Below, piece by piece: positions 8,098 to 52,274 of a stretch of 64,000 bases of DNA. The DNA comes from a virus (lineage: Duplodnaviria > Caudoviricetes). The notes beneath the pieces were generated by a model. It was not told where the DNA came from and made no database searches. It worked only from the letters and a program-made list of their open reading frames with translations. A program made the translations under genes and the position numbers. The stretch lies in IMG/VR virus record IMGVR_UViG_2548876929_000003, positions 4,825 through 68,824 of that record. One strand, 5' to 3'. Every line of letters starts with the position of its first letter. Position 1 is the first letter of the stretch.

Positions 8098-8865
8098 TCA
8101 AACACTACATTGCTTTAATACATCATCACTAATTAAGCAGTGTTCTAAACATTTTTTTTCTAGTTCTTCTAAATCACTATCCCAGATTCCCTTATAGATC
8201 ATATGTTTCTTGATATCGTAGTAATTTTCATCACTAAACAGGGCATAAGAGCATGTAGCACTATACTCTGATTCTGATTGGCAAGAATTTAATAGGTTAT
8301 GCACCTTACATATCAATTCATTCTGATCTTCAATTGCCTGAGTTCCATTTGTCTTCTCAATCCATTTCACCAGTATATCCAAGGTTTCGGACACTTGATT
8401 ACCTATTTTGAATCTAGGCAACATAAGACGTTCAGAATCATTTAACTGTAAAATCCGAACAGTTCTCTTTCCAATTTCGTCCTTGCTAAAAAAACGATAA
8501 TTTTTGATAAATAAGTGCTGGCTTGGTTCATCGATTGTAGGATTTATGATTGGTTCGTGTTTCGTATCGTGATCTCTCTTTAAACCGTTACATCGTTTAC
8601 ATATTGGTAGAAGATTGAGCCAATCTACAACTTCATATGGGTATAAGGACTTGGGATGAAAATGTTCTACCTCAATATATTTACTTTCTTCGCCCAGTTT
8701 GCATTCACAAAAAATACACTTATCATGGCTCATTGCTAATAATGCTTTTTTAATATAATCTTGATTCCAAACATTTCTTTTAGTTTTCAAATATTCTTCG
8801 GTTAGTTCTTTTACTTTTTCATTAGTCATTTGATGTGGAGGAAAAGTTCTTGTAATTTTTATCAT
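8098..8865 (-). CDS. ptuB: HNH endonuclease, Septu PtuB-like
   Basis: CIFCE...EVEHFHPKSLYP..VVDWLNLLPICKRCN; directly downstream of an ABC-type ATPase. Confidence 0.75.
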   Translation of the reverse strand: MIKITRTFPPHQMTNEKVKELTEEYLKTKRNVWNQDYIKKALLAMSHDKCIFCECKLGEESKYIEVEHFHPKSLYPYEVVDWLNLLPICKRCNGLKRDHDTKHEPIINPTIDEPSQHLFIKNYRFFSKDEIGKRTVRILQLNDSERLMLPRFKIGNQVSETLDILVKWIEKTNGTQAIEDQNELICKVHNLLNSCQSESEYSATCSYALFSDENYYDIKKHMIYKGIWDSDLEELEKKCLEHCLISDDVLKQCSV

Positions 8866-8868
8866 AAT

Positions 8869-10020
8869 TCACCCTAAGGAACCCAATTGGAGTTCATATA
8901 CCTTCCTCATTGGACTTCGTGGATGTAGCATTTTATTTAAAACATCGAATAACTCCCTTGCTTGTTCAATATCTTCATTATCTAGAGCATGTTCAAATTT
9001 ATTTTTAATTTCCAAATATTTATTTGACCTTGTTTCCTTCAAACCCATAACATCTTCCAATATTTCTTCGACTGTCCAGCCTTTAAATCCATACTCAGAT
9101 TTAAATAGATCCAGTTTAAATACCTCACCTTCTTCATCAATGCCAAGAGCAATAAGTTCTTCAGTATTTGCCTCCTGAATCATATGTGGACTATGAGTAG
9201 TAATAATAATTTGTGCATTTGTGAACGTATTTCTAAGTGCATCAACAAATGGTCCTTGCCAGTAAGGATGCAAATGGGCATCTGCTTCATCGATTAGAAT
9301 GATACCATCGAAATCCGAAACTCTAACTTTGGGCGTCATATTGAATTCGATTTCTTTAATTAGACCCAATAAAATAAATAAGGTTGACTTAAAGCCAGAG
9401 GATAAATATTCAAAATAAACTTTACCTCTCGGTGTGTTTACTATGGTGTCTAGTGTTGAATGATCTATATGAGAGTATGTAACATTTTGATCAAGTAATG
9501 AAAAACATTTCTTAGCAGAAGATAAGTTAAATAATTCCGCTTCAGAAAGATGTCCTTGTGGCTCGAACAAAATTCTGTTACTTAACCAAGTCTTTATCGT
9601 CTCTCCCCGCATCCCATTTATGAAATTACGTTGGTAAATTCTTGAATCTCTTTCCTCATCTGAACGTATTCCATCCACTTTTTGATATTCGAGTTGTCTT
9701 TGGTCTTTTATATAGATCACTTTCAAAGCCTCTTCAAAAATTAAACTATAGACTATTTGCGACTCATTAGGCATAAATGACTCAGTATTGAAAACATTTT
9801 CTTCCCCATCAATTTTCACTTTCCATACACCTTTATCAACCCTAGAATTACGTTTCAATTTTCCAGAATTCCCAAAACTAAATGCATGGACAATACATTC
9901 CAAAATAGTACTCTTTCCTACCCCATTCATTCCACAAATAATATTTAATCTATCATTAAAAGAGACATCAAGTTCTTTTATACCACCTATATTTTTAATA
10001 GATACTGAATCAACCTTCAT
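8869..10020 (-). CDS. ptuA: ABC/AAA ATPase, Septu PtuA-like
   Basis: Walker A GMNGVGKS, signature LSSG, Walker B ILIDEADAHLHP, H-loop ITTHSP; start ATG 10020 after AGGGAGG. Confidence 0.8.
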   Translation of the reverse strand: MKVDSVSIKNIGGIKELDVSFNDRLNIICGMNGVGKSTILECIVHAFSFGNSGKLKRNSRVDKGVWKVKIDGEENVFNTESFMPNESQIVYSLIFEEALKVIYIKDQRQLEYQKVDGIRSDEERDSRIYQRNFINGMRGETIKTWLSNRILFEPQGHLSEAELFNLSSAKKCFSLLDQNVTYSHIDHSTLDTIVNTPRGKVYFEYLSSGFKSTLFILLGLIKEIEFNMTPKVRVSDFDGIILIDEADAHLHPYWQGPFVDALRNTFTNAQIIITTHSPHMIQEANTEELIALGIDEEGEVFKLDLFKSEYGFKGWTVEEILEDVMGLKETRSNKYLEIKNKFEHALDNEDIEQARELFDVLNKMLHPRSPMRKVYELQLGSLG

Positions 10021-10069
10021 AATAGTTCCTCCCTTGTTTAAAAGGATTATACCACAAAATCCCACTCTG

Positions 10070-10291
10070 CTATCCCAAAACATAAGTTTCAAGCAGTTCA
10101 TTCTTAGACATAATCTTACAGCGATTTATCCATCCTTCATCAGTATCTTTTTCCATTGGACCAATAAGTATTGTATCTCCGTTTGAACTAACTGCATACA
10201 AAATTTTTCTCTTTCCAGTTCTTTTATGCACCACAATGACATTTGGAACTGAGTAGGATACAATTAATTTTTCTAATTCATTCAAATTCAT
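10070..10291 (-). CDS. 73-aa hypothetical protein upstream of ptuA
   Basis: ORF track; RBS GGAGG before ATG 10291. Confidence 0.6.
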   Translation of the reverse strand: MNLNELEKLIVSYSVPNVIVVHKRTGKRKILYAVSSNGDTILIGPMEKDTDEGWINRCKIMSKNELLETYVLG

Positions 10292-10566: not shown

Positions 10567-11109
10567 TTAAGTGAGTACAGGCGTTTGAGCCACTATGTTT
10601 GGAACTTTTACTGGTTCAGTTGCCCCACTTGCCACGGTATCTCCTTCAGTAGCTTGAGAAAGAATAGCCGTAACTTGTGCAGCTAAAGAAGAGACAGCTT
10701 CCTTAGCTGCGGCCTGTGTCGCCTCTTCACTTGGCTGAGCTTCGGTAGTCAGCACTGTCTTTGTCTTAGCCTTATACTCCAGATATGCCTTCTCAATTGC
10801 AGACCTTAACTCTACTTGGGAAACTGTAATGCCCTGACTGGTAAGAGTAAGTGAAGCATACTGCAAAGCCTCCTGAAGCTTACGCTCTCCCCCTGCCTGC
10901 TTAAAAGCTGTCTGAGCAAAAGCAAATCCTTCCCCAGCGATCTTATGAATTACTTCCCTCTGTGCTGCCGTTGTACGCGCTTCTAGCCACACGTTAACTT
11001 TAGTCTTGAGTTTGTTCAGACCTCCTAAAACAAACGCTGTAAGCACACCCGCAGCGGCTGTGACAATGGTATTTACATAAGGCTGTACAGTTTCGATAAT
11101 GGTTTGCAT
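10567..11109 (-). CDS. Phage holin, LL-H-like family
   Basis: Single N-terminal TM; AFAFAQTAFKQAGGERKLQEA...IEKAY pattern; follows the endolysin. Confidence 0.7.
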   Translation of the reverse strand: MQTIIETVQPYVNTIVTAAAGVLTAFVLGGLNKLKTKVNVWLEARTTAAQREVIHKIAGEGFAFAQTAFKQAGGERKLQEALQYASLTLTSQGITVSQVELRSAIEKAYLEYKAKTKTVLTTEAQPSEEATQAAAKEAVSSLAAQVTAILSQATEGDTVASGATEPVKVPNIVAQTPVLT

Positions 11110-11111
11110 GA

Positions 11112-12062
11112 TTATTTATCCCCTTTCGTTTTCAACGATGCGATTTTATTTTTTGAATCCCAGGACACTACAGCGCCGTATGCCTCCGCAACGGGTCTTA
11201 GCTGCACATATGCCACTCCTTCGACCAGTTGGATAAATTGCAGCTTGGCTCCATTTAAAAAAGCGACCTTGAGACTGGTGTCCCAATGACACGATAAGCC
11301 CAACACAGTAGCAAGCACACGCAGCGGAACATACGTCCTGCCACTAAAGAGCAACGTCTTCCCTACCTGTTTGCCATTTGCGATGAACGTACCGGACGTG
11401 ACTGTCTCCGGCTGCTCAGGGCGCTTTGTGAAACGTTCACGCAGCTCGTCCGCCGTACCATCATACTCATTCATATCCACGTTCCCTTTTATCCCTGCTA
11501 CCTTGCCGCTATCGCTATATTGCCAAATATCCCAACGTTTCCACGTCACTGTATCGCTTGGGACGCGAGTATCACTATACCGGGCTATCCATAGTGGGTA
11601 ACCGCCCAATGAGGCGTTAAAATTAGCTGCGAATGCATTGCCTGTATAGATAATGGGCTTGCGTCCTGTAAGTCTCTCCAGCTCAAGCAGGAAGGCCAAA
11701 GCTACAGCACTAATAAGTGTTTTGGACAAGTTGCCGGGATTGTTTTCATAGTCCATCACCGGAGGAAGGTCCAACGCTTTAGCGCCTCCAACCTGGTCCA
11801 ACACATCAGCAAAATGCTTTGCTTCTACTTTTGCTGCGTCAACGTTGGTTGCATCTAGGAAATGGTATGCTCCCAGCAATACACCTGCTTCCTTGGCCCT
11901 TTTGGCATTTGTAATGAATGTCGGATCAACATAACGTTGCCCCTGGCTGGCCTTGATGAAGGCAAATGAAACACCATCTGCCTTAACCGCCTTCCAATCA
12001 ATCTTACCTTGATATCTGGATACGTCGATCCCTCTTGCATTACGGCTGTTTCGTCGTTGCAT
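11112..12062 (-). CDS. Endolysin: GH25 muramidase plus copper-amine-oxidase-N-like cell-binding domain
   Basis: GIDVSRYQG, FIKASQG, PPVMDYE, WQYSDSG..GIKGNVDMN; C-terminal GRTYVPLR. Confidence 0.9.
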   Translation of the reverse strand: MQRRNSRNARGIDVSRYQGKIDWKAVKADGVSFAFIKASQGQRYVDPTFITNAKRAKEAGVLLGAYHFLDATNVDAAKVEAKHFADVLDQVGGAKALDLPPVMDYENNPGNLSKTLISAVALAFLLELERLTGRKPIIYTGNAFAANFNASLGGYPLWIARYSDTRVPSDTVTWKRWDIWQYSDSGKVAGIKGNVDMNEYDGTADELRERFTKRPEQPETVTSGTFIANGKQVGKTLLFSGRTYVPLRVLATVLGLSCHWDTSLKVAFLNGAKLQFIQLVEGVAYVQLRPVAEAYGAVVSWDSKNKIASLKTKGDK

Positions 12063-12492
12063 CTTCTTTCTCTCCTTCCTTACCACTCTTACTTTTCAAA
12101 ACTTCTACGGCCTGTCGGATCACTGGCGGGATAGGTGCGCCGAGTCTGCCGCCATTCTCCAAAATGGACAAAAGCTCATTTGCCATATAAAAATAGGCGA
12201 CCGCATCCCGGAATAGGTGCGAATCGCCTAAGACTCCATCAATTAGATGGGATACTGCTACCATCGTAAAAATAAATACCTTTCGAGCGATACCAATAAG
12301 ACCGATCTTACTTTTTAAACCAGGTCCGGTACCCTTCTTACCTTCTGCGCCAGCCGCAAATAATCCGGTCACATAATCAATAACGACTAGAGCAAGTAAC
12401 ACCCCCAATACTCCCGACCACCCACCGTAAAAATACGTCACAGCGCTACTTCCTAAAGCAGTGCTGAACTTAAAAACCTCCCACTTATCCAC
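12040..12492 (-). CDS. Phage holin (holin-4 / toxin-secretion family)
   Basis: VIDYVTG, ARKVFIF, NELLSILENGGRLGAPIP; likely GTG start at 12492 after GGGGGA. Confidence 0.9.
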   Translation of the reverse strand: MDKWEVFKFSTALGSSAVTYFYGGWSGVLGVLLALVVIDYVTGLFAAGAEGKKGTGPGLKSKIGLIGIARKVFIFTMVAVSHLIDGVLGDSHLFRDAVAYFYMANELLSILENGGRLGAPIPPVIRQAVEVLKSKSGKEGEKEDATTKQP

Positions 12493-12514
12493 CTTGCTTC
12501 CCCCGTCTCTTCGT

Positions 12515-12736
12515 TCAGGAAACTTTTCCTGAGCTATCATCGTCTGTTTTCTGTTCATTTTCTTCCTGGGCCTGCATCTCTGCTAATGCATTTCCTACTG
12601 CCATATCCAAACCTATAAGTATTTCTTTCCGTCGTGCTGGCTGTGAAGCAATTACAGCAGAAATGACCTCAGTCAAATCCTCAACAGGTCTGGTTAGATC
12701 CAGTTGTATATCCAATGTGGATTTTATCTTTGCCAT
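12515..12736 (-). CDS. Small phage hypothetical protein
   Basis: ORF track; RBS GGGAGGTG before MAKIKSTLDIQ. Confidence 0.7.
   Translation of the reverse strand: MAKIKSTLDIQLDLTRPVEDLTEVISAVIASQPARRKEILIGLDMAVGNALAEMQAQEENEQKTDDDSSGKVS
12516..12531. promoter_or_regulatory. Palindrome CAGGAAA-NN-TTTCCTG upstream of the holin
   Basis: Perfect 7-2-7 inverted repeat that recurs elsewhere in the window. Confidence 0.6.
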
Positions 12737-33683: not shown

Positions 33684-35144
33684 TTATTCACCTCCCTCCG
33701 GTGGAGTATTTTCTTCATTTAAATTAGATTCATGCTTTTGTACAAGCAAAGGAAGTAATTCAGCAGGAATTTTGGCATTAATACCAAGTGTCCAACGTAT
33801 TTCCTCAGCAGCTTCCAACGGTGTGATGTAGAAATTCTTCTCCGCTGTGATATAGTTGTCGATCTTTGAACGTCGGTCACGTTCAATCTCATTTTCAGAA
33901 CGTAAATCAATGGGGAGGTAGTCAGCTTCAACTTTTGTTTGAGTCCCCTTTACTCTTGCAGACAACGAAAAAGCCCGCTGCCAGAAACGTTTGGTTACGC
34001 TCCGCGCGGACTCTACATTTTTGATATATATTTGAGTGTCAATTGAACTGTACGTTTCTGTTGACCCTTGATGTCTAGAAAGGATAGTAAGCAGTGTCTT
34101 GAGTGAAGTAGCCATTTGGGTATCAATGATATCAATCAGCTTCTTAATATCAATCATCGGTCCAGAATTGCCGCCTTTGAGATATTCCACCTTTACACTA
34201 TCCCAGTGGACAAGAGCATCATCTGGATTGAGTGAGTTGAAATGGTTTAGCATCTCATCCATTCGCTCTTTGAGCCATTTTTGTTGACCATCGGGATTAC
34301 TCTTTAAGTTGTTTGGCATATTCTTCAGCATGATTTCTTCCAGCATCGAAATATCGAGCCTTGGATACCCCTGGTTATGAACTACTGCTTTTAGATCTGC
34401 CAACACCTGAAGATGAAAGAATACTACTTGCAGTACCGGAAGCATAGGCGTTCGTCCATAAGGATCATCAACCATAGGATCAAACTCTTCATAGATGAAT
34501 GTTGGTGTGTCAATCTTTTTGTAATTGCCAAACCATTCTTCATTTGCGCCCCTTCTTGGGTTCTTTACATACTGCCACGGTGTAAGTCGATTAGTATCTG
34601 GCTCCCTACGGAACCAAATTAAAGCCGGATCAACTGGAACAATATCAATGACATCATTACACTGCTCATTCAGGACGATTTCCCCGGCACAAGCCCCACG
34701 GACCATAATCATCATCCGCTGAATTGTGTCTAGTTTATCTAATGAGCGTCCGTGCTGGTATCCCGGCGAAGGTAGCGGTGTATTAAGCATAGCTTTGAGT
34801 TCATCCAGTACCCGTTGTCCGCTCTTATCTGCATTCCCATTCGGCTTCTTAGCTGTAAACGTTAAATCGGTATCTCCCATACGCAAGTATGTGTATAAGG
34901 CATAGGATACGTCGGGATGAACGGATATCAGAAGTTCCAGTAATTCCTCAGCTGTATAGCTCTGTAACTTGGTAAGGTCAATATTGTGAGCCTGCTGATG
35001 TTTCTTGGGTAGCCAATTAAATATGCCCCACGGGTTAGCATTATTAGGTACTGTTGCTCTGCCTATACCCATCATCTGACGCTTTACCGCTGTTGGAAGA
35101 ACAGCATTAGCAAATGAATATACAGCTCTATGATACCATTTCAA
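33684..35144 (-). CDS. Portal protein
   Basis: 486 aa; first gene of the head module; VPVDPALIWFRRE. Confidence 0.8.
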   Translation of the reverse strand: MKWYHRAVYSFANAVLPTAVKRQMMGIGRATVPNNANPWGIFNWLPKKHQQAHNIDLTKLQSYTAEELLELLISVHPDVSYALYTYLRMGDTDLTFTAKKPNGNADKSGQRVLDELKAMLNTPLPSPGYQHGRSLDKLDTIQRMMIMVRGACAGEIVLNEQCNDVIDIVPVDPALIWFRREPDTNRLTPWQYVKNPRRGANEEWFGNYKKIDTPTFIYEEFDPMVDDPYGRTPMLPVLQVVFFHLQVLADLKAVVHNQGYPRLDISMLEEIMLKNMPNNLKSNPDGQQKWLKERMDEMLNHFNSLNPDDALVHWDSVKVEYLKGGNSGPMIDIKKLIDIIDTQMATSLKTLLTILSRHQGSTETYSSIDTQIYIKNVESARSVTKRFWQRAFSLSARVKGTQTKVEADYLPIDLRSENEIERDRRSKIDNYITAEKNFYITPLEAAEEIRWTLGINAKIPAELLPLLVQKHESNLNEENTPPEGGE

Positions 35145-35297
35145 GATTTCACCGCCTTTCTTTGCAAACTTCTATAAATAAAGGATAACATCTTTTTTAT
35201 TCGAATTTACTGCTGATTTTTGCCCAAAAAAAGTACTTCTTCCTCCATAAGATTCGATTTTTGAAGGCCTTCTGGAATCTGTAATAAAAAAAGAAGA

Positions 35298-35313
35298 CAG
35301 GAAAACTTTCCTG
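35298..35313. promoter_or_regulatory. Palindrome CAGGAAA-NN-TTTCCTG upstream of portal (could also be a terminator stem)
   Basis: Perfect inverted repeat, followed by a T-run on the - strand. Confidence 0.55.
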
Positions 35314-35519
35314 ACCTTCTGTATTTGTTCATACTTCTATGTTTAATTAATATCTTGGGTTATGTATACAATCCCTATCCCAAGTTTAATAAATCCAGTT
35401 ATCAAATTTAATTTGTTTTTATGGAACGGTTGCGATACCTCGACACATACAATATGCTCAGAACACCAACTACATCTGTCAACTAAGATGGTCATCCAAA
35501 GACCATTATTACAATTTAA

Positions 35520-36323
35520 TTACAAAGGTGGTTCAATATCATTAGTATTGTTTTGAGAATTCACAAGTTTCTCAATAAACGGCGGTATAGGCAATCCTGT
35601 CACCTTCATATTATCAACGGTTCCTTTAAGCTCGCCCCATACTAGCCATACCAATAGCAGAGAATAAAATGTGTTGTCTGGCAAGCCATCAAATGAAACG
35701 AATTTACTCAATACGTTACCTATAAATAACCAAAAGTATGGGAGAATGAATATTTGAACTGTCCGATTGAATTTTATATAGTCATTTGGCGTATGATATC
35801 TATTTGCCCATACACGAGAAATAAAATGGGCTACTGTTAAAGAAACAAAAACCCAGTTCAGAGTAGTAAACTGTCCAAATAGCAGCGTTATAACTGCACC
35901 GAGTAAAACAAAGAATAACTTAATGCTTGGGACAGCAACAAAGTCGGAGAAATATCTGCTTAATTCACTCATACCTACAAAAGGAAAGAAAGAGGCTATA
36001 TTTCTCATTAATTTCTCACCCCTTACCATGGGATGCTTATAAATATGCTTTTCCTTTGTTTTTATTACTTTCTGTTCTTCAATAAGTTTATTTGTACTCT
36101 CAATAAAATTTGATGCAATCTTTAGCATTTCCTCATGCTCATACTTTATCTTGCTTTGATCACTAGCATTTAGTACTTGCCAATAGACAGAGCGTGTTTC
36201 ATTCAATACATATTCTATCTTTTTTTCAATTCTTTTAAGTTCCTCGTTTGACTTATCATTTTCTCTGAAAGATTGTATTTCTAAGAAAATATTGCTTCTT
36301 TCTTGGTACAAATCATTCTTCAT
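35520..36323 (-). CDS. Soluble N-terminal domain fused to a holin-4-like membrane domain
   Basis: C-terminal half aligns by eye with the holin at 12040 (GELKGTVDNMKVTGLPIPPFI vs NELLSILENGGRLGAPIPPVI). Confidence 0.6.
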   Translation of the reverse strand: MKNDLYQERSNIFLEIQSFRENDKSNEELKRIEKKIEYVLNETRSVYWQVLNASDQSKIKYEHEEMLKIASNFIESTNKLIEEQKVIKTKEKHIYKHPMVRGEKLMRNIASFFPFVGMSELSRYFSDFVAVPSIKLFFVLLGAVITLLFGQFTTLNWVFVSLTVAHFISRVWANRYHTPNDYIKFNRTVQIFILPYFWLFIGNVLSKFVSFDGLPDNTFYSLLLVWLVWGELKGTVDNMKVTGLPIPPFIEKLVNSQNNTNDIEPPL

Positions 36324-36981
36324 ACGTATCGCCAGCCTTATGCGCCAAAAAGGACAAATTCCCCTTCGTTTGCAAAGATAAATACTTATTCATTTCAGAT
36401 AATGATTGTATACATAGAGAATCAAGGTTACTGTATAAATCTTGAGAGTTTATCAATTTCTTATCTGTTTCAATTTCTGAAAAAACAATATTAGGCTGTT
36501 CATCTCTATTACTTTCATCGAATATTCTTATTCTTGTTGTAGTATCATTAGCATTTTTTACTGTAAATTGAACATCTACAGATAAAATATCCTCTTCTTC
36601 TAAACTTAAACCAAGCAGTTTTTTATTATCTTTTATCATAAACCCACCTATATGAACAACTTTTTTTATGACAAGTTTGTCAAAATCAATTTCTTTAACA
36701 AGCACATCTATAAATTCTTTAAATTTTTTTGTCCAATCCTTAACAATAGCAATTGTAATATCAATACTCTTTGATCTAAACTCACATTTCATTATAGGAA
36801 AACATTCGATAAGTTGTACATGATCCGGTGAAATCTCTACTTTTTTGAATTTGAAATTTTTTTTAATTATCTCCAACCATTTTAATTCAACCTCTTGAAT
36901 ATTTAGGTCCAAATAACTAAGTTCAAGTTCAACTACCATAGGTTTAAAAGTATCAGCTTCCTGTAAGTTAGATGAAAACAC
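36313..36981 (-). CDS. Hypothetical soluble protein, translationally coupled to the holin-domain gene
   Basis: GTG start after AGGAGG; 11-nt overlap with the next gene; AT-rich. Confidence 0.7.
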   Translation of the reverse strand: MFSSNLQEADTFKPMVVELELSYLDLNIQEVELKWLEIIKKNFKFKKVEISPDHVQLIECFPIMKCEFRSKSIDITIAIVKDWTKKFKEFIDVLVKEIDFDKLVIKKVVHIGGFMIKDNKKLLGLSLEEEDILSVDVQFTVKNANDTTTRIRIFDESNRDEQPNIVFSEIETDKKLINSQDLYSNLDSLCIQSLSEMNKYLSLQTKGNLSFLAHKAGDTYEE

Positions 36982-37515
36982 AAATTGTTCCTCCTACTAT
37001 AAATAAAAAATCATTCTCTTATAGATTTAATATCTCATTATCACCAGAAAGTGTCAATATCGAATGGACAAATATAAACATTTTATGTATTAAACTTCAA
37101 TCCATATAGGTCTTAATACCTGTTTTAATGAACTGAGCGCTTATTTAAAACCCGAAAAAAGAAACAGCGATAGGGTCTACTCCCGCAAGCGGGATGCAAA
37201 ACGCTACGCTGTTGCATAAAAGCATTGTACTTAGTAACTAGAGAGGAAGAATAACACCATTTTACATATTGCTAAAAATGTCCGTCAAAGAACAAAAACC
37301 GGACAATACCGGAAAATGGGTAATTAAACCATTATAAGCTGGCTTTTGCTCACTTTCTCGATATTACTCGTCCTAAACGATTCTCTCACCCAGTTTATCC
37401 TCATCACCGGAAGCCATTACATTACATCCCAACTTGAATCACAAAAGAATGCGCCCATTGTTGTATGTTCGAGCTCGGGTTGGTCGACCTCTTCAATGCA
37501 TACTTTATGATAAGA

Positions 37516-38029
37516 TTATTGCAATTCTCCTTTAGCATTGGCTATGCGAACTGAAAGGCCGCCCTTCATAACACCGCCGGGTGAAGTAAGGTTTACATAG
37601 AAACTACCAACAGGCCAAGTACTTTCGTTGATTTCATCAAATACTTTACCTGGGGTTTATTTTTCCTTTCATCTTAACTGGACCACTAGCAGACTCCTGA
37701 GTTACTGTTATATTAATCGGGGCTTTCCCATCATTATACACATACACTCTAGCATATCCGTATCCCGGATCAATGTAGAAACGCTCTGACATGTCAGTAT
37801 TCCCAAGAGACTTGTTGAGTACCTTTTTCGTGTCTTGAGGAGTAATAACATGATCCCCCAGTTTTGATGTATTCACCTCAATAGATTCATTTGCAGCTTG
37901 AACTACTGGCGCTGAGTCCACAGTAGCTGAATTTATACCACTGATAACTGAAGAAGTACAACTAGTTAACGATAATACAGCAGCTAAAGACAATACAGCA
38001 AAGAAAGGAGTCATTCCACTATTTTTCAT
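37516..38029 (-). pseudogene. Frameshifted lipoprotein gene (extra base in the C4 run at 37652-37655)
   Basis: Lipobox LSLTSC; removing one C from AACCCCAGG extends the frame to GKVFDEINESTWPVGSFYVNLTSPGGVMKGGLSVRIANAKGELQ-stop at 37516. Confidence 0.7.
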
Positions 38030-38139
38030 ATTATAAACCCACTTTTTTCAATTTAAAAGATTAATTTCTTATAATAATATTATAAGGTTTATTTTGTAAT
38101 TCTCAAAGAAGGATTGGCGATCCCCTTAAATTCAATCTT

Positions 38140-38550
38140 CTTTTAGATGCCGTGGCCTCTCACCGGAAAGGCTTCCCCTCTAGAAGAGCACGCAGCGGAA
38201 TTGAACCGCGCAAGGGTTCTGACCAGGCTGTTTCATGTTTCCGCTGGTTAACTGGTTCCTTGCCGCCTGCGCGTGCCATGAATAATGTAGGCGGGGGCCA
38301 CTCTTCCCCCGTATGAAATGACTTACCGTTTAACCGCAATCTGCAAACTGTGTCGATCTACCGCTGTGCGTTACGGGTGCCAAGGATCTACCCTTGTTCG
38401 CGGCCACATAATCGGGCCTTCCCTTGCGCGCACTGGTCTATGCCGCTGAGCAGTATGTCCCTCTATCCCCTTGCAGGAGTCACTGAGGCTATTTAACTGT
38501 CATCTGCAGGTGTCATCCTACGTTGTAGCGTCTCTCTTCCGCCACCACAT
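38140..38550 (-). ncRNA. Putative large structured non-coding RNA with tRNA-like elements
   Basis: GC-rich stretch with no credible ORF; D-arm-like GTGGCGGAAGAGAGACGC; T-loop GGTTCAATTCC closed by an acceptor-like stem; long-range complementary segments. Confidence 0.55.
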
Positions 38551-38557
38551 TCAAAAA

Positions 38558-38818
38558 CTACAGGAGCTCTGCTGCGAGTTGCTTGAGCACCAACGGTGTT
38601 GGGATGAGTTGGCCATCTTTCTTGTTACCCTTAACATAAGCCTTGTCCTCACGAGCATAATAGACAACGCCTTGGCCCTCGACGATCGGAAATGCCGCTT
38701 TCATCATCCGTCAGGGATGTTTGTCGTGCTTACCATGTTGAGCAGCATGTTCTTCATCGTGTAAGTGTAAAATACCGTCAGAGCTGAGAAATGCAAAGCG
38801 TGGTTGTGTAGTAGACAT
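38558..38818 (-). pseudogene. Disrupted paralog of the 84-aa gene at 44729..44983
   Basis: MSTTQPRFAFLSSDGILHLH...FPIVEGQGVVYYAREDKAYVKGN; in-frame TGA between apparent compensating indels; RBS AGGAGG. Confidence 0.75.
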
Positions 38819-38998
38819 GATCAAATGTCCTCCTAATATGTTTTGTAGAAAAACCAAAAAGGCTGGCACGTTGTCCGACCTGAGTCACCGAAGCTTGAAA
38901 GCTGCAGTTTCGTTCCTTATTTGATTTTCCATGATACAAATTTACGTCATTAAAAGTCCAACCGTGAAACATAAGAGGCCATTTCCCCAAAAAAAATA

Positions 38999-39955
38999 CT
39001 ATTCCCATTGGCCAATCGTGAAATTACTTCTCCAAGTCCACAAATCTCCTAATCCAGTACCAGTAATACTCACAGAGCCTAAAGATAAAGCAAAGGGCAC
39101 CTCAGTGTATGAATGAGCATAACTATTAGCAAAGCTTCCTGTACCACCACCATGCGCTGCTGGTATTCTTACTTCAGTATATAAAGTTCCGTATTGTTCT
39201 TTGATAGGTATTAAACGGACCGAACCAATAGTTCCCGAAACTTGTGATTGGTCAATATTACTGAATTCACCATCATGCCAGTTTCCATTTGCTGTACGAT
39301 AAAAGAAATCCGCTTTTGACCCAACGGCTGAAGTATGGGATTGGAAAGCATGCGCTACCCTATCAGATAAGGTAATCCAAGGGATGTTGCTCCAGTTAAA
39401 ATGTGTTCGGTATGAGTACTTGTACTCTCTACCATTAGCCGTTTTCCCCATATAATGAATTGAAGAAGTGCCTGAAAAAGTACCGTCGTTAACAGATCCC
39501 ATTGCAGATGTGCTAATTTTATCACCTTTTATTTTCTTTAAATCAGCTTCTTTGATTTTGTTAATTTCAGCTTCATTTTCTGGTGTAATTATATGCTCCT
39601 TACCACTAAGATCAAAGTATTTGTGGACCATTTCACTTTGGGTTACATTAACTTTTACTCCACCCTCAGTAATGAGGTAAACTTTTTCCGACTCAGAGAG
39701 TTCTTCACTTTCTTTTTCAGTATAGCCCATTTCGCTTAAGATCTCATTTTGTTGTTTCTCCGTCAAAGCCTTTGCATTCTCAATCGGCTCAATACGGCCA
39801 TCAGAAAATTTTTTAACCGTTAGATTGTTGTCAATTTTCAGGGGAGTATAGTCCATTACTTTCATTTCTGCCGAACTAGACGCGCTAACTGAGCCTTGAG
39901 AAAACGCAAGGAGTCCAACTACCACAAGCGAGAGTAACCCTGTCTTCTTTTTCAT
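38999..39955 (-). CDS. Secreted protein with a beta-rich C-terminal domain, function unknown
   Basis: Signal peptide MKKKTGLLSLVVVGLLAFSQGSVSA; ORF track. Confidence 0.7.
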   Translation of the reverse strand: MKKKTGLLSLVVVGLLAFSQGSVSASSSAEMKVMDYTPLKIDNNLTVKKFSDGRIEPIENAKALTEKQQNEILSEMGYTEKESEELSESEKVYLITEGGVKVNVTQSEMVHKYFDLSGKEHIITPENEAEINKIKEADLKKIKGDKISTSAMGSVNDGTFSGTSSIHYMGKTANGREYKYSYRTHFNWSNIPWITLSDRVAHAFQSHTSAVGSKADFFYRTANGNWHDGEFSNIDQSQVSGTIGSVRLIPIKEQYGTLYTEVRIPAAHGGGTGSFANSYAHSYTEVPFALSLGSVSITGTGLGDLWTWRSNFTIGQWE

Positions 39956-40046
39956 TCTCTACCTCCAAAGTGGAATAATATTGTAATTCTATTACCAATA
40001 TTATCATAGATATAGTATAATGATCAAATATTGGAGGTGTATTCAA

Positions 40047-40343
40047 ATGTTAGTGACAAAAAACAAAAATGCAATATTTATTTTAAAAATTGCATTTTTG
40101 TTACTAATCATTGGCTGTATTTATTATTTTTCTGGATCTCATTCTAGTGAAAACGCTAAATTAATTGAAGTTAAAGATGATTACTTAGTCATCCAGAGCA
40201 ATGCGTCTAACGGAGGCAAGATTAAAAAATTATATATTTCTTCAAAGTCCGTTATCCCTCCTCTTGTTGTGGGGAAGGAATATTACTTCGTGTCTGACCA
40301 AAGATATTTCCAACGTCCATATATCCGTTTTGTAGAAGACTAA
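40047..40343 (+). CDS. Small membrane-anchored protein (moron)
   Basis: RBS GGAGG before ATG 40047; one TM helix; terminator AAAAGTCGAAG/CTTCGACTTTT downstream. Confidence 0.65.
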   Translation: MLVTKNKNAIFILKIAFLLLIIGCIYYFSGSHSSENAKLIEVKDDYLVIQSNASNGGKIKKLYISSKSVIPPLVVGKEYYFVSDQRYFQRPYIRFVED

Positions 40344-40742
40344 AGTAGCAAAAGTCGAAGAAAATGAACTTCGACTTTTGTTTTATATACAATTTGGATG
40401 TTTATATATATATTTTTTAACATTAAGATTCAATATAATCCCCACTATGTTTATAGCTGCAATTTTTATCACAAAATGTGCTGTCACTAGTCCCTAGCTC
40501 ACCACACCTGATATAATCGTGACTTCTCAGAACTCCCCCACGTTGCACATACTGGAAAACTTACTCATCGTCAGTTCCAACAAACTATCCTTTGCCTCAA
40601 GCTCTATCTCCTTATCAATATTATATTATGGAGCAATTTCCTCCCTCACTTTGCTGGCCTCATTAGTAGATTGATGCTCTCTAAATAAACAGTTCTGAGA
40701 AATCTCCACCTCATGCAATATATTATCTATTCTCACCGTAAT

Positions 40743-42200
40743 TTATCTTTTTACAGTTACACTACCTATTGAAGGAAGCATAATATGTGTATCTGGTTCC
40801 ATTAAATATTCCCCAAATGTCAAAACAAAAGCGTCAGCTCGGTCTGGCGACTTGAGCCCACGCTTTTTCATATCCTTCTTACTTTCAAGTAGCATTTTAC
40901 CCTTACTGGTCATGTTCCATTTACGTGCTGTAAGTTGGGTTATAAGAACATCGTCATCGGGCAATTGCAGAACGCTCACATCTCCATTTATAAAATTGCT
41001 CATATTCTGTTCTAATTGTTTCTTAATGGATGCCCACATTTCAGTAACTAGATTTCCATAGTGTTCATCTAATGAAGAGGAGCCGTTGTTAATTGGAATG
41101 ATTTCATATGGTAGCCCTTCTTCAGCTACGATTTCATTTAGTCGATCGGTTACTCCTCCACCTACACCACTATCATCAACTCTTATTCTGATTCGGTTTA
41201 AATATGGATGCTCTTCATTTAGTTCTTTAGCCAGGCTGATCACCCAACCAGCAGTAGCCATTGTGTCTTTCTTGAAATGATGGTGTTCCCCTACAATTCT
41301 TGGTCCTATACCAGCAAACATTGAGGTTTCATCATCACCAAATCGTGCAACGTCAACGCCTATGGTTAGCATATCTCCAGTAGGTTCCAGTTTCACTTCT
41401 TTAGCTGCAAATTCTGCTACTTCCAACGAGATAAAGGTATCCGATTCTCCACGGGGGAATTCACCTTCAACCCGGACTCTCCATACATCGCTACCTTCAC
41501 CATACTTACGCTTGAGCATAGCGATATTATCCTTACTGGTTCTTGGGCTGTCTAAGCATGACACCTTGCGTGTTTTATAATCCGCTCTGTCCTTATTGTG
41601 TGAATCATAAAAAACACCCGACGTTTTTGTCGGGTTGCCGCACATCAATATTTTATTGAACTCACCCGACAACGTACCTAAAATGGCTTCCATGATTGGA
41701 TCAGCAACACCTGAAGCTTCATCCACAATGAAAAGCATGTAGTCCTCATGGAAGCCCTGCATATTCTCAGGCTTGGTTGCTGTCCGAGCTGTAGCGAACC
41801 AGCGTTCCTCATAGTTCTTCATGTAGATTTTGGTTTTAGTCCATTTAAGGATTCTTTTCAGCACTGGGCTTTTGGACTGCCATTTATTTATCTCAGCCCA
41901 TAACACGTCATGTAACTGCTGTCTTGTAGGAGCTGTACAAATCACTTTTGGATAAGGGAAACAGGATAGAAACCAAAGGGCTGTTGCAGCTTCTAGTCCG
42001 GTTTTTCCTACACCCTGACCTGAACGGACTGAAACACGAGGATCATTTGCTAAATCCATAAGAGTGCTTGCCTGCCAATCATCAGGATAGAATTTAAGCA
42101 TCTCTTGGCAGAATAATGTAGGATTCTTACGATATTCAGGAATCCGTTTCTTGAATGCTTGAAGCCTCCGTTTCGTCTCCGGTGAGTCTTTCGTCTTCAT
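40743..42200 (-). CDS. terL: Terminase large subunit
   Basis: Walker A SGQGVGKT, Walker B VDEASG, GNPT, nuclease GVDVARFGDD and SPDRADA. Confidence 0.95.
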   Translation of the reverse strand: MKTKDSPETKRRLQAFKKRIPEYRKNPTLFCQEMLKFYPDDWQASTLMDLANDPRVSVRSGQGVGKTGLEAATALWFLSCFPYPKVICTAPTRQQLHDVLWAEINKWQSKSPVLKRILKWTKTKIYMKNYEERWFATARTATKPENMQGFHEDYMLFIVDEASGVADPIMEAILGTLSGEFNKILMCGNPTKTSGVFYDSHNKDRADYKTRKVSCLDSPRTSKDNIAMLKRKYGEGSDVWRVRVEGEFPRGESDTFISLEVAEFAAKEVKLEPTGDMLTIGVDVARFGDDETSMFAGIGPRIVGEHHHFKKDTMATAGWVISLAKELNEEHPYLNRIRIRVDDSGVGGGVTDRLNEIVAEEGLPYEIIPINNGSSSLDEHYGNLVTEMWASIKKQLEQNMSNFINGDVSVLQLPDDDVLITQLTARKWNMTSKGKMLLESKKDMKKRGLKSPDRADAFVLTFGEYLMEPDTHIMLPSIGSVTVKR

Positions 42201-43425
42201 TACCTACCACCGCCTCTACCCAATCATCAATTAGATCGTCTTCTGTATTGCCTTCACCCGTGACTTTTGCCCTTTCGAGCTCAAGTTTCTCACGCTGCAT
42301 CTTAAGTTTCTCGTCTTCAACCATCCGTTTATGTTTGTCTGGAAGCAGATCCATGTATTTAGTTAGCACGTCTAATGCCTTGGTTTTGTCGTGTAGCTTT
42401 ACACTCACTCCGTCCTTACCCTGCTTGACTTCTGAAACCAGAGTTCCATCAATTTCATCACTGTTTTTAAAAGAGACATAATTATATCTGTACTTCTTCG
42501 TTTCTCCAGTCTCAGAATCAAAGACAGGGTCTCCATCTAAACCAAGAACGTCCTCTTCCTTTTGACCAAATTCCACGTAATCCGTAATGTCTGCAAAAGC
42601 TATCTTCATGTACTCCATCAGTACGCGCTGAGCGTTCAATCCTATCTCATCAATCATAGATTCTTTGTGCTGCCGAATAATGTTTTGAATTTCAACTTTC
42701 TTCAACAGAGCGAATCCAATCTGATAGGCAGTTTTCTTACTGTATCCCGCCGCAATGGCTGACCTGGTAGCGTTGAAGTCTCGAAGGTATTCATAAGTGA
42801 ATATCCTTTGCTTAGGCGTTAATCCATCCTCATCAGGAATTTCAGGTTCAGGTTCTTCAACAACCACTGGAGCGCTCTGTACTTTTTTAGAACGTTCCAT
42901 ATTACTGGAGCGTTCCGATACCTTTTTCGGAGCGCTCCGTATTTCTGGTATAGCAACTTTTAGCTCTTTAGCAAGTGCGTCAACTGTAAGCGGGGTAGCA
43001 TATACCTCTCTTGGCTTATCATCTCTATATGTACCAATGAGTCTGCGCCGCTCCAGTTCATCAATCAGTCTGGCTGCTCTGCTATAGCCTATCCTCATCC
43101 TTCTCTGTAATAAAGAAACCGAGGCTTGTTTGGCCTCGGCTACAATTTGGACAGCTTTTAGAAAAAGCTCATCAGGATATGATGTTGGGTCTTCATCTTC
43201 ATCTGGAGCTTCTTTATTATAAGGCGCTCCATTTTCATCAGAACGTTCCGTATCCTTCACTTCTCCAGCAATTAAACTCTCCCACTTATCTTTAGCCTTC
43301 CATCCTCTTACCGTACCTTCAGATACACTAAGTTGAGAGGCTATATCTGTGAGACGTATGTTGCCGGAACTGGTTTTGTATAAATCGAATGCTTCATCCC
43401 GTTTTGGATCTCTTTTTCGTCCCAT
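42136..43425 (-). CDS. terS: Terminase small subunit with an inserted FtsK/SpoIIIE gamma domain
   Basis: N-terminal HTH (TVRGWKAKDKW); gamma domain at aa ~85-142; TerS core LTPKQRIF..EYLRDFNATRSAIAAGYSKKTA. Confidence 0.9.
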   Translation of the reverse strand: MGRKRDPKRDEAFDLYKTSSGNIRLTDIASQLSVSEGTVRGWKAKDKWESLIAGEVKDTERSDENGAPYNKEAPDEDEDPTSYPDELFLKAVQIVAEAKQASVSLLQRRMRIGYSRAARLIDELERRRLIGTYRDDKPREVYATPLTVDALAKELKVAIPEIRSAPKKVSERSSNMERSKKVQSAPVVVEEPEPEIPDEDGLTPKQRIFTYEYLRDFNATRSAIAAGYSKKTAYQIGFALLKKVEIQNIIRQHKESMIDEIGLNAQRVLMEYMKIAFADITDYVEFGQKEEDVLGLDGDPVFDSETGETKKYRYNYVSFKNSDEIDGTLVSEVKQGKDGVSVKLHDKTKALDVLTKYMDLLPDKHKRMVEDEKLKMQREKLELERAKVTGEGNTEDDLIDDWVEAVVGNEDERLTGDETEASSIQETDS

Positions 43426-52088: not shown

Positions 52089-52112
52089 AACTGATCTTGG
52101 CTTGTGCCAACC

Positions 52113-52274
52113 TCACCGGATGATCCCGGTGAACGCTCTGAGCTTAATGACCTGTTTATACTCGCTCAGACGAGTTTTTAATTCTTTGATCCAAATTGTA
52201 AGTAGGATGAAACTCCACTCGAATTCCCAAAACCCGTCTTGCCAGAATACCCATTGCTTGTATGTTTTTCTCAT
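52113..52274 (-). CDS. 53-aa Trp-rich protein divergent from the XRE gene
   Basis: RBS GGAGG before MRKTYKQWVFWQDGFWEFEW. Confidence 0.45.
   Translation of the reverse strand: MRKTYKQWVFWQDGFWEFEWSFILLTIWIKELKTRLSEYKQVIKLRAFTGIIR

What the first reader, a model, noticed from the sequence alone, without database searches (positions are those of the whole stretch)
35520..36981. Candidate novel anti-phage system: unknown soluble protein plus a holin-domain effector
Seen: two AT-rich, translationally coupled genes (ATGAAGAATGA overlap) with their own RBS and upstream intergenic space, in the hotspot. The second has a ~110-aa charged helical N-terminus fused to a multi-TM domain. That domain aligns by eye with this phage's own holin-4 (KLFFVLLGAVITLLFGQF vs KFSTALGSSAVTYFYGGW; GELKGTVDNMKVTGLPIPP vs NELLSILENGGRLGAPIPP). 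Inference: a holin repurposed as a gated membrane-depolarising abortive-infection effector, with the 222-aa protein as sensor or inhibitor. I recognise no named system with this layout.
Basis: inference. Interest (0 to 1): 0.78.

Follow-up and report, generated by a model that had tools for sequence, protein, structure and literature searches.

The report
Prophage two-gene holin-effector defence candidate
A self-contained 1.8-kb cassette in a prophage cargo hotspot encodes a small acidic soluble protein and a membrane protein built from a regulatory helical domain fused to a phage holin domain. It is most likely an undescribed, rare and untested abortive-infection type anti-phage module.

Summary
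On the minus strand, gene A (36313-36981, 222 aa) and gene B (35520-36323, 267 aa) overlap by 11 nt, and the stretch is AT-rich. Residues 144-255 of B match Pfam Phage_holin_4_1 above the curated cut-off. The phage has its own separate holin and endolysin cassette. PADLOC, PHROGs and NCBIfam do not recognise either protein.

New evidence:
- Comparison with 30 related prophages shows the pair is a discrete cassette of about 1.77 kb (about 35365-37130).
- It lies in a hypervariable terminase-portal gap (24 bp to 7 kb). In relatives the gap carries known defence genes, including PD-T7-5, PD-T7-1, Mrr nucleases, PIN_8 and SieB.
- All 10 distinct B homologues have a soluble gene of about 200 aa directly upstream.
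- The system is modular. A plus the N-domain of B also occurs with a soluble C-domain and a weakly HEPN-like third gene instead of the holin domain. The holin domain also occurs with an unrelated partner (A') and a different N-region.
- A folds confidently (pLDDT 86) into a TBP-like double repeat, but the whole family is acidic.

I read it as a Rex-like sensor plus membrane-effector abortive-infection module (confidence about 0.5). Function is untested, the family is very rare, and which role A plays (activator or inhibitor) is open.

The parts
35365..37130 (-). Whole cassette as bounded by comparison with related prophages (about 1.77 kb)
   Evidence: blastn against 30 related prophages. Relatives lacking the pair (L030, L037) share sequence down to window 37127-37137. 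Homology resumes at about 35361-35366 in many loci. Contigs from public runs also diverge at 37137. GC is 0.29-0.35 against 0.43-0.48 in the flanks.
37029..37057 (-). Promoter-like site, TTGACA-17-(TG)GATATT, about 50 nt upstream of gene A
   Evidence: Consensus scan, 10 of 12 matches with TG before the -10. This is a pattern match only, not shown to be active. It lies inside the cassette boundary.
36313..36981 (-). Gene A: 222-aa acidic soluble protein with a TBP-like double beta-alpha-beta4-alpha fold; proposed sensor/regulator
   Evidence: ORF with AGGAGG before the GTG start. AlphaFold pLDDT 86.3, pTM 0.82. Foldseek matches TBPs at E 5e-5 with TM-scores of only 0.3-0.4; VIA Z 7.2-7.9. A family of about 14 cluster representatives was found by HMMER. 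pI 4.6-5.1 across the family. No Pfam, PADLOC, PHROGs or NCBIfam hit.
36009..36323 (-). Gene B, N-terminal cytoplasmic helical module (about residues 1-105), shared with the non-membrane variant
   Evidence: Helices 4-22, 26-51 and 61-84 in the model, at low pLDDT of 55-65. hhalign against the middle gene of the three-gene variant gives probability 97.2%, E 4.3e-11 over residues 22-84. H93 and G102 are invariant across both classes.
35559..35924 (-). Gene B, holin-family membrane domain (residues 134-255, four predicted TM helices); proposed effector
   Evidence: Pfam PF05105 at E 2e-7, 31.5 bits against a cut-off of 22.2. TM helices in the model with pLDDT 70-84. Hydropathy scan. Most conserved part of the family.
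35520..36323 (-). Gene B, whole (267 aa)
   Evidence: ORF. Its start overlaps the stop of A by 11 nt. Homologues P0002-4, P0009-11, P0030, and the B genes of L014 and L025.
35298..35313 (-). Terminator-like hairpin just outside the cassette, within a conserved 35284-35361 element upstream of the portal gene
   Evidence: Pattern scan. The element is conserved at 83-88% in many relatives whatever their cargo.

Best explanation
A and B form a prophage-borne, two-component abortive-infection or phage-exclusion module that is built like lambda RexAB but is not related to it.

B sits in the membrane through a divergent Phage_holin_4_1 domain and has a cytoplasmic helical N-domain of about 130 aa. 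The acidic TBP-fold protein A is made in fixed proportion through translational coupling. I propose that A binds this N-domain and controls whether the holin domains assemble. A cue from an infecting phage would change the A-B interaction, the holin domain would oligomerise and permeabilise or depolarise the membrane, and the infected cell would die or lyse before the invader matures.

Shown: the anatomy, the holin-family membership of the domain, the conserved pairing, cassette autonomy, hotspot context and modular exchange of parts.

Inferred: A-B binding, membrane permeabilisation, phage triggering, protection, and the sign of A's action (activator as in RexA, or inhibitor as in an antitoxin).
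For: 1. B carries a significant holin-family domain, but it has a long cytoplasmic extension and lies 23 kb from the phage's own holin_4_1, GH25 endolysin and holin_6_1 cassette.
2. Pairing is conserved. All 10 distinct B homologues found have a soluble gene of about 200 aa directly upstream, overlapping or within 30 nt. One of those upstream genes is cut by a contig end (L005) and one is frameshifted (L012).
3. The parts are exchanged in the mix-and-match way typical of defence systems. The A family pairs either with holin-type B (window, L006, L007, L014, L020, L025) or with a protein of about 190 aa that shares B's N-module (hhalign 97%, E 4e-11) but ends in a soluble domain and is followed by a weakly HEPN-like gene (L017, L018, L023, L026). 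Conversely, the holin domain also occurs with an unrelated partner A' and a different N-region.
4. The pair is a discrete cassette in a hypervariable TerL-portal gap. The gap is 24 bp in 3 relatives and up to 7 kb in others, with 68 distinct cargo protein clusters. That cargo includes PD-T7-5 (E 2e-107), PD-T7-1, methyltransferases, Mrr_cat, PIN_8 (4 members), SieB and NA-iREase1.
5. Other loci lie beside HsdR plus RelA_SpoT (L018), HipA-like genes (L012), AbiTii (L007), or at prophage ends next to lysis cassettes (L011, L020, L023).
6. Only 1 of 30 close relatives of this prophage carries the pair, so it is dispensable for the phage life cycle.
7. There is precedent for a holin domain in a reported defence protein: Epona, an Mrr_cat domain fused to a holin domain (10.1101/2024.07.02.601686).
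Against: - There is no functional or expression evidence of any kind.
- The promoter and terminator are pattern matches only.
- The cassette points the same way as the late structural genes, so late read-through expression is possible.
- The model of B's N-domain is poor (pLDDT 55-65).
- A-B binding could not be tested. Nothing indicates what A would sense, and its fold match is generic (Z below 8).
- Several loci are adjacent to lysis cassettes, which also fits a lysis-related role.
- The family is extremely rare: beyond the window's own prophage lineage, one of about 185,000 species genomes, no record in 50,697 phage genomes and one IMG/VR contig. Context statistics therefore rest on about a dozen loci.
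- The HEPN assignment of the alternative effector is below Pfam's threshold.
Confidence: 0.5

Rival explanations
1. Toxin-antitoxin or addiction module with no defence role. A is a protein antitoxin that neutralises the membrane toxin B by binding its cytoplasmic domain (as SpoIISB does with SpoIISA), and the pair merely stabilises the prophage or island.
For: The gene order (small soluble gene first), the 11-nt overlap and coupled translation are typical of type II-like TA pairs. B is a plausible membrane toxin. L012 lies beside a HipA-like pair. The alternative variant has a HEPN-like third gene, a common toxin class.
Against: Two lineages show a frameshifted upstream gene with an intact B: L012/L013 and L028. 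That is unexpected if the upstream gene were an essential antitoxin. The evidence is weak, because the L028 indels are all single-A insertions in A-runs and could be sequencing errors, and loss of coupling may also silence B. The hotspot cargo is dominated by defence genes rather than plain TA pairs. TA and abortive infection are not mutually exclusive.
Confidence: 0.17
2. Accessory lysis regulator of the phage itself. B acts as an alternative holin or as an antiholin that co-assembles with holin_4_1-type holins, and A tunes lysis timing.
For: B's membrane domain belongs to the same Pfam family as the phage's own holin. The cassette has the orientation of the late genes. Several homologous pairs lie next to lysis cassettes (L007, L011, L020).
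Against: - In the window the pair is 23 kb from the lysis cassette.
- 29 of 30 close relatives lack it.
- Neighbouring lysis cassettes use different holin families: r1t in L007, holin_6_1 in L023.
- L018 and L025 lie among chromosomal genes rather than phage genes.
- The same A plus N-module drives a non-membrane, HEPN-like partner, which has no place in lysis control.
Confidence: 0.12
3. Superinfection exclusion at the envelope without cell death. B interferes with DNA entry or with the holin of a superinfecting phage (a holin decoy that blocks or mistimes lysis), and A is an accessory factor.
For: B is a membrane protein in a prophage hotspot that also carries SieB in a relative. The holin homology could allow hetero-oligomerisation with incoming holins of the same family.
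Against: The non-membrane variant with the same sensor module argues for an intracellular trigger rather than an envelope block. No signal peptide or extracellular domain is present. The N-domain is predicted to be cytoplasmic.
Confidence: 0.1
4. Non-lytic holin-type export device for a neighbouring cargo protein, like TcdE for clostridial toxins.
For: Phage_holin_4_1 relatives are used for non-lytic protein release (PMC9527704, listed). The island also encodes a lipoprotein and a secreted 318-aa protein.
Against: Those neighbours start with hydrophobic, signal-peptide-like N-termini and lie outside the cassette boundaries. No conserved third cargo gene accompanies the pair in other loci.
Confidence: 0.04

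Closest known systems
Lambda RexA/RexB and Rex-like pairs of actinobacteriophages (Sbash gp30/31, Butters gp30/31, CarolAnn gp44/43)
   Same: Prophage-encoded two-gene operon with a cytoplasmic protein encoded first and a four-pass membrane protein second. The proposed logic is the same: the soluble partner controls a membrane channel that collapses the membrane potential and aborts infection (PMC7542560).
   Different: There is no sequence relation. A has no DUF4747 (RexA-like) hit and has a TBP-like fold. B's only Pfam match is the holin family. B carries its own regulatory domain of about 130 aa, which RexB lacks (from my knowledge, RexB is about 144 aa and almost entirely membrane). The module also exists with a non-membrane effector.
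Epona (Vibrio chromosomal integron cassette): Mrr_cat nuclease fused to a 2-TM holin domain
   Same: A holin domain recruited into a protein reported to have anti-phage activity (10.1101/2024.07.02.601686).
   Different: Epona is a single protein with a nuclease domain and two TM helices. Here there is no nuclease. There are four predicted TM helices of the holin_4_1 family, a helical regulatory domain and a separate partner protein. Homology to Epona was not tested because no sequence was at hand.
Canonical Phage_holin_4_1 holins (for example this phage's own 172-aa holin at 12040-12558)
   Same: B residues 144-255 cover nearly the whole Pfam profile (positions 2-112 of 116), including the C-terminal E-L-x5-N-x5-G-x-P-I-P-P motif.
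   Different: The score is far lower (31.5 against 129 bits). There is an N-terminal extension of about 130 aa. The gene is not next to an endolysin. It is paired with a soluble partner and is present in only 1 of 30 related prophages.
SpoIISA/SpoIISB of Bacillus subtilis (membrane toxin with a cytoplasmic domain bound by a small antitoxin)
   Same: The concept is shared: a holin-like membrane toxin whose cytoplasmic domain is the docking site of a soluble regulator (my knowledge, not tested here).
   Different: The domain order is reversed, with TM first in SpoIISA. The antitoxin there is 56 aa and unrelated. No sequence similarity was detected in the Pfam scan.
Transmembrane effectors of signalling defence systems (CBASS Cap14/Cap15-type, Pycsar PycTM, type III CRISPR Cam1)
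   Same: A cytoplasmic sensor or regulatory domain fused to membrane-disrupting helices acts as the suicide effector. Effectors are swapped modularly between systems (my knowledge).
   Different: No cyclase, SAVED, CARF or nucleotide-binding domain is present in A or B. Control would be protein to protein rather than by a nucleotide signal.

Membership tests
Pfam PF05105 Phage_holin_4_1 (domain of B) | HMM match above the curated gathering score | tested here: met
   E 2e-7, 31.5 bits against a cut-off of 22.2, residues 144-255 on profile positions 2-112 of 116. Homologues P0003 (25.7 bits) and P0011 also pass; P0030 is just under at 20.6 bits.
Pfam PF05105 Phage_holin_4_1 (domain of B) | Several membrane-spanning helices | tested here: met
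   Four helices of TM length in the model, 134-242, pLDDT 70-84. The hydropathy scan gives peaks at 131-149, 147-165 and 188-209.
Functional phage holin (lysis gene) | Small protein encoded in the lysis cassette beside an endolysin | tested here: not met
   B is 267 aa with a soluble extension of about 130 aa. It lies between the terminase and portal genes, 23 kb from the GH25 endolysin and its two holins at 10567-12558.
Functional phage holin (lysis gene) | Forms lethal membrane holes at a programmed time | not testable with these tools
   This needs expression and membrane-potential or lysis assays.
RexAB-like abortive infection | Cytoplasmic partner of the RexA / DUF4747 family | tested here: not met
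   A has no Pfam hit at E up to 0.1. Its fold is TBP-like. DUF4747 is the feature shared by Rex-like systems according to PMC7542560.
RexAB-like abortive infection | Four-pass membrane partner encoded directly downstream in the same operon, on a prophage | tested here: met
   Gene order A then B with an 11-nt overlap. Four predicted TM helices. Prophage context.
RexAB-like abortive infection | Expressed from the prophage in the lysogen, and protects by depolarisation | not testable with these tools
   Only a promoter-like pattern at 37029-37057. No RNA run holds the pair.
Known or candidate defence systems in PADLOC-DB 2.0.0 | Significant match of either protein to a system model | tested here: not met
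   A has none. B has only PbeC at E 0.006, 13 bits, on the helical N-region. Later model sets such as current DefenseFinder were not available.
TBP-domain fold (protein A) | Two tandem beta-alpha-beta4-alpha repeats forming a pseudo-dimer | tested here: inconclusive
   The order of secondary-structure elements fits. Foldseek matches many TBPs at E about 5e-5, probability 1.0, but with TM-scores of 0.3-0.4. VIA gives Z 7.2 over 157 residues, tied with COR and McsB domains.
TBP-domain fold (protein A) | Basic DNA-binding saddle | tested here: not met
   All 14 family members are acidic, pI 4.6-5.1, net charge -6 to -17.
HEPN (third gene of the three-gene variant, not in the window) | Pfam HEPN match above threshold and an Rx4-6H motif | tested here: inconclusive
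   All 3 members hit PF05168 at E 0.001-0.008, below the 22-bit cut-off. I saw no conserved Rx4-6H in the three-sequence alignment.

The most novel reading that the evidence does not exclude
A plus the N-terminal helical module of B is a new, portable phage-sensing switch, built from an acidic TBP-fold protein and its docking domain. It can be wired to unrelated executioners: a holin-derived pore in this prophage and a HEPN-like protein elsewhere. On this reading a phage lysis protein has been domesticated as an immune effector, and the family is a previously unrecognised modular defence system of Bacillota and their prophages.
Probability: 0.4. Interest if true: 0.72.

Novelty: new variant of a known kind. 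Interest (0 to 1): 0.6.

Why it matters
If the pair protects against phages, three things follow.

- It would add a sensor family with no known relatives and a holin-derived executioner to the list of abortive-infection systems. It would be a Gram-positive, non-homologous counterpart of RexAB.
- The natural swap between a membrane pore and a HEPN-like effector on the same sensor module gives a ready-made experiment on how one sensor couples to different killing devices.
- The terminase-portal gap of this prophage lineage is shown here to be a rich, hypervariable cargo site. It holds 68 distinct protein clusters in 21 loci, including several known defence genes, and could be mined further.

The practical weight is limited by the family's rarity.

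Tried and rejected
- tblastn of A and B against 50,697 phage records: no match.
- Scans with the B alignment: genome contigs gave one locus (L014). Viral contigs gave only the near-identical sister prophage (UViG 2551306396) and one already known contig. Metagenome contigs gave nothing new.
- The A-family alignment was too divergent for the search for related loci.
- ESM Atlas: only unnamed clusters for A and nothing for the B N-domain.
- A against A': BLASTP and hhalign show no similarity.
- PDB sequence searches with the profiles of the middle and third genes of the three-gene variant: nothing significant.
- RNA evidence: no run holds the pair. Small-share runs cover only 37137-38060, the neighbouring lipoprotein gene of relatives, so expression in the lysogen remains unknown.
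- I considered reading the frameshifted A genes in L028 and L012 as proof that A is not an antitoxin. I rejected them as decisive: the L028 indels are all single-A insertions in A-runs, and L012 and L013 are identical over the aligned stretch and may be one organism.
- The 50-aa ORF at 35343-35495 downstream of B lacks an RBS and crosses the cassette boundary, so I do not count it as a gene.
- Literature searches found no description of a holin_4_1-domain defence system. The nearest is Epona.
Full report
**1. What is there**

The window is a provirus record. On the minus strand, late genes run from the small terminase (42136-43425) and large terminase (40743-42200) through the portal (33684-35144) and the head, tail and lysis genes. 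Between the large terminase and the portal lies 5.6 kb of cargo.

The finding covers the portal-proximal part of that cargo:
- Gene A, 36313-36981, 222 aa. It has a GTG start with AGGAGG 8 nt upstream.
- Gene B, 35520-36323, 267 aa. Its ATG lies inside the last codons of A (ATGAAGAATGA, an 11-nt overlap).
- GC falls to 0.29-0.35 against 0.43-0.48 in the neighbouring genes.

**2. Protein B**

Pfam places residues 144-255 in Phage_holin_4_1 (E 2e-7, 31.5 bits, cut-off 22.2). The phage's own lysis cassette is elsewhere. It consists of a 172-aa holin_4_1 (129 bits), a GH25 endolysin and a holin_6_1 at 10567-12558.

Direct BLASTP of B against that holin finds only the C-terminal motif (E 0.005).

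The AlphaFold model (8-sequence alignment, mean pLDDT 64) shows:
- three long N-terminal helices (4-84);
- a poorly modelled linker;
- two short helices (98-130);
- four helices of membrane length (134-242, pLDDT 70-84).

Hydropathy agrees, and A has no hydrophobic segment. With no signal peptide and four spans, both ends of B should be cytoplasmic (inference).

**3. Protein A**

No Pfam, PADLOC, PHROGs or NCBIfam family matches A. The word-based search of 5.8 billion proteins found only A itself. An exhaustive HMMER search with a two-sequence profile found about 14 cluster representatives of about 200 aa.

With that alignment, A folds confidently (pLDDT 86.3, pTM 0.82) into two beta-alpha-beta4-alpha repeats.

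- Foldseek matches many TATA-binding proteins (E about 5e-5, probability 1.0) but with low TM-scores of 0.3-0.4.
- The exhaustive aligner gives Z 7.2-7.9 for TBP, COR and McsB domains, a range in which only a shared arrangement can be claimed.
- One unnamed viral protein in BFVD matches over its full length (TM 0.60).
- The whole family is acidic (pI 4.6-5.1), so a TBP-like DNA saddle is unlikely.

**4. The pair is conserved and modular**

B homologues are very rare. Every one has a soluble gene of about 200 aa immediately upstream.

*Type 1, A-family partner with a B of 260-274 aa:*
- the window and its sister prophage L028;
- L006, where A is 29% identical at E 3e-30;
- L007, L014 (a Bacillota MAG), L020 and L025.

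*Type 2, a 300-aa B with the same holin domain but a different N-region:*
- It is preceded by a 208-212-aa protein A' (L001-5, L011, L012).
- A' shows no similarity to A.

*Three-gene variant, four further A-family members (L017, L018, L023, L026):*
- A is followed, again with an 8-11-nt overlap, by a protein of about 190 aa and then a protein of about 120 aa.
- The 190-aa protein shares B's N-terminal module (hhalign 97.2%, E 4.3e-11, B residues 22-84). H93 and G102 are invariant across both classes. It ends in a soluble domain rather than a holin domain.
- The 120-aa protein hits Pfam HEPN weakly in all three members tested (E 0.001-0.008, below threshold).

So one sensor module is coupled to two different outputs, and one output is coupled to two different upstream partners. 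Known defence systems show this pattern. Lysis genes would not be expected to show it.

**5. Context**

Thirty prophages with portals 76-97% identical were fetched.
- Their terminase-portal gap ranges from 24-45 bp (L038, L041, L042) to 7 kb.
- The gap holds 68 distinct protein clusters of 120 aa or more in 21 loci.
- PADLOC recognises PD-T7-5 (E 2e-107), PD-T7-1, several methyltransferases, a ZorD-like protein and PDC-S02 among them.
- Pfam adds PIN_8 (4 members), Mrr_cat (2), SieB, DUF5677 and NA-iREase1, beside non-defence cargo such as an SLH protein and peptidases.
- Only L028 shares the A-B pair.

blastn fixes the cassette limits. Relatives with other cargo share sequence down to 37127-37137 and again from 35361-35366. 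Contigs from public runs also break at 37137. The cassette is therefore about 1.77 kb. It contains a promoter-like TTGACA-17-TGnGATATT site at 37057-37029 and abuts a conserved element with a terminator-like hairpin at 35298-35313. These two are pattern matches only.

Other loci add to the picture:
- L018 lies beside HsdR and a RelA_SpoT gene.
- L012 lies beside a HipA-like pair.
- L007 has AbiTii nearby.
- L011, L020 and L023 lie at prophage ends next to lysis cassettes.

This prophage also carries a Septu-like PtuA/PtuB pair after its lysis genes.

**6. Mechanism**

The best reading is a two-component abortive-infection or exclusion module. Coupled translation sets the A:B ratio. A docks on the cytoplasmic N-module of B. 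A phage-derived cue changes this interaction, and the holin domain assembles and permeabilises the membrane.

Steps shown: domain identities, pairing, modularity, cassette autonomy and hotspot context.

Steps inferred: binding, triggering, depolarisation, protection, and whether A activates or restrains B.

Two lineages show a frameshifted upstream gene with an intact B: L012/L013 and L028. That would favour an activator role, as with RexA, over an antitoxin role. The evidence is weak for two reasons. All the L028 indels are single-A insertions in A-runs and may be sequencing errors. A frameshift would also uncouple B's translation.

**7. Rivals**

- *Plain toxin-antitoxin module (0.17).* It fits the gene order and overlap, and it is not exclusive of defence.
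- *Lysis regulator or antiholin (0.12).* It fits the family of the domain and the proximity of some loci to lysis cassettes. It does not fit the non-membrane variant, the loci among chromosomal genes (L018, L025), the varied holin families next door, or the absence of the pair from 29 of 30 close relatives.
- *Envelope-level exclusion (0.10) and holin-type export (0.04).* These are less likely, for the reasons given in their entries.

**8. Comparison with known systems**

In logic and layout the pair resembles RexAB and the Rex-like pairs of actinobacteriophages, which have a cytoplasmic DUF4747 protein plus a four-pass membrane protein (PMC7542560). It fails the membership test for that family: A has no DUF4747 hit, and B's only Pfam match is the holin family.

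A holin domain in a reported defence protein has one precedent that I could find. This is Epona, an Mrr_cat-holin fusion from Vibrio integrons (10.1101/2024.07.02.601686). Its architecture is different.

B is a member of the holin_4_1 domain family, but it lacks the defining context of a lysis holin. I therefore class the finding as a new variant of a known kind: a sensor plus membrane-effector abortive-infection system built from protein families not previously tied to defence.

**9. Verdict**

Interest is 0.6. The modular architecture and the new sensor family are attractive and directly testable, but the family is very rare and no mechanism is demonstrated.

Noticed in passing
window 8098-10101 (-): The two genes just after the lysis cassette resemble the Septu / retron-Ec78 effector pair. 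The 410-aa ATPase hits NCBIfam PtuA (E 2e-40) and the 255-aa protein hits PtuB HNH (E 3e-17), both below the equivalog cut-offs. This is a second probable defence module on the same prophage.
   Followed up: partly
window 35145-40742, and loci L028-L057: The terminase-portal gap is a hypervariable cargo hotspot in this prophage lineage. It runs from 24 bp to 7 kb, with 68 distinct protein clusters in 21 loci. Cargo includes PD-T7-5, PD-T7-1, Mrr_cat, PIN_8 (4 members), SieB, methyltransferases and NA-iREase1.
   Followed up: yes
window 35284-35361: A short element with a terminator-like hairpin (35298-35313) just upstream of the portal gene is conserved at 83-88% in many relatives whatever cargo precedes it. 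It may insulate the late operon from cargo transcription, or mark the recombination boundary of the hotspot.
   Followed up: partly
L017:2038-3415, L018:5001-6625, L023:194-1729, L026:5001-6539: A three-gene variant exists: an A-family protein, then a protein of about 190 aa with B's N-module and a soluble C-domain, then a basic protein of about 120 aa with sub-threshold HEPN similarity. In L018 it lies beside HsdR and a RelA_SpoT gene.
   Followed up: partly
L028:7161-7826 (sister prophage, IMGVR_UViG_2551306396_000002); L012:5702-6324: The upstream gene is frameshifted while B is intact. In L028 there are three single-A insertions in A-runs; in L012/L013 there is one frameshift. This is either real decay or phase variation, or a homopolymer sequencing error.
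   Followed up: partly
L028:4567-5980: In the sister prophage the TerL-proximal cargo differs from the window. A 349-aa ORF overlaps a 134-aa ORF that contains an R-x4-H (RSSIVH) motif, so this may be a split HEPN-type gene. It was not searched.
   Followed up: no
window 37137-38060 (-): The 127-aa lipoprotein gene (phrog_33200, E 6e-18) and its downstream region occur at about 95% identity in contigs from RNA-seq libraries of several coded organisms and studies, at high contig depth. They break exactly at the cassette edge, 37137. Contigs cannot prove transcription.
   Followed up: partly
window 52106-52175 (-): Pistol ribozyme, Rfam RF02679, 74.7 bits against a cut-off of 34.5, full length.
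   Followed up: no
window 42136-43425 (-): The small terminase carries an FtsK gamma domain (PF09397, E 8e-24) between its N-terminal HTH and the Terminase_2 core. This agrees with another first-reader note.
   Followed up: no
window 38100-38550: A GC-richer stretch without an ORF follows a small gene. A copy of that small gene with a similar ORF-free stretch is kept in L028 (6185-7100). No Rfam family reaches threshold there.
   Followed up: no
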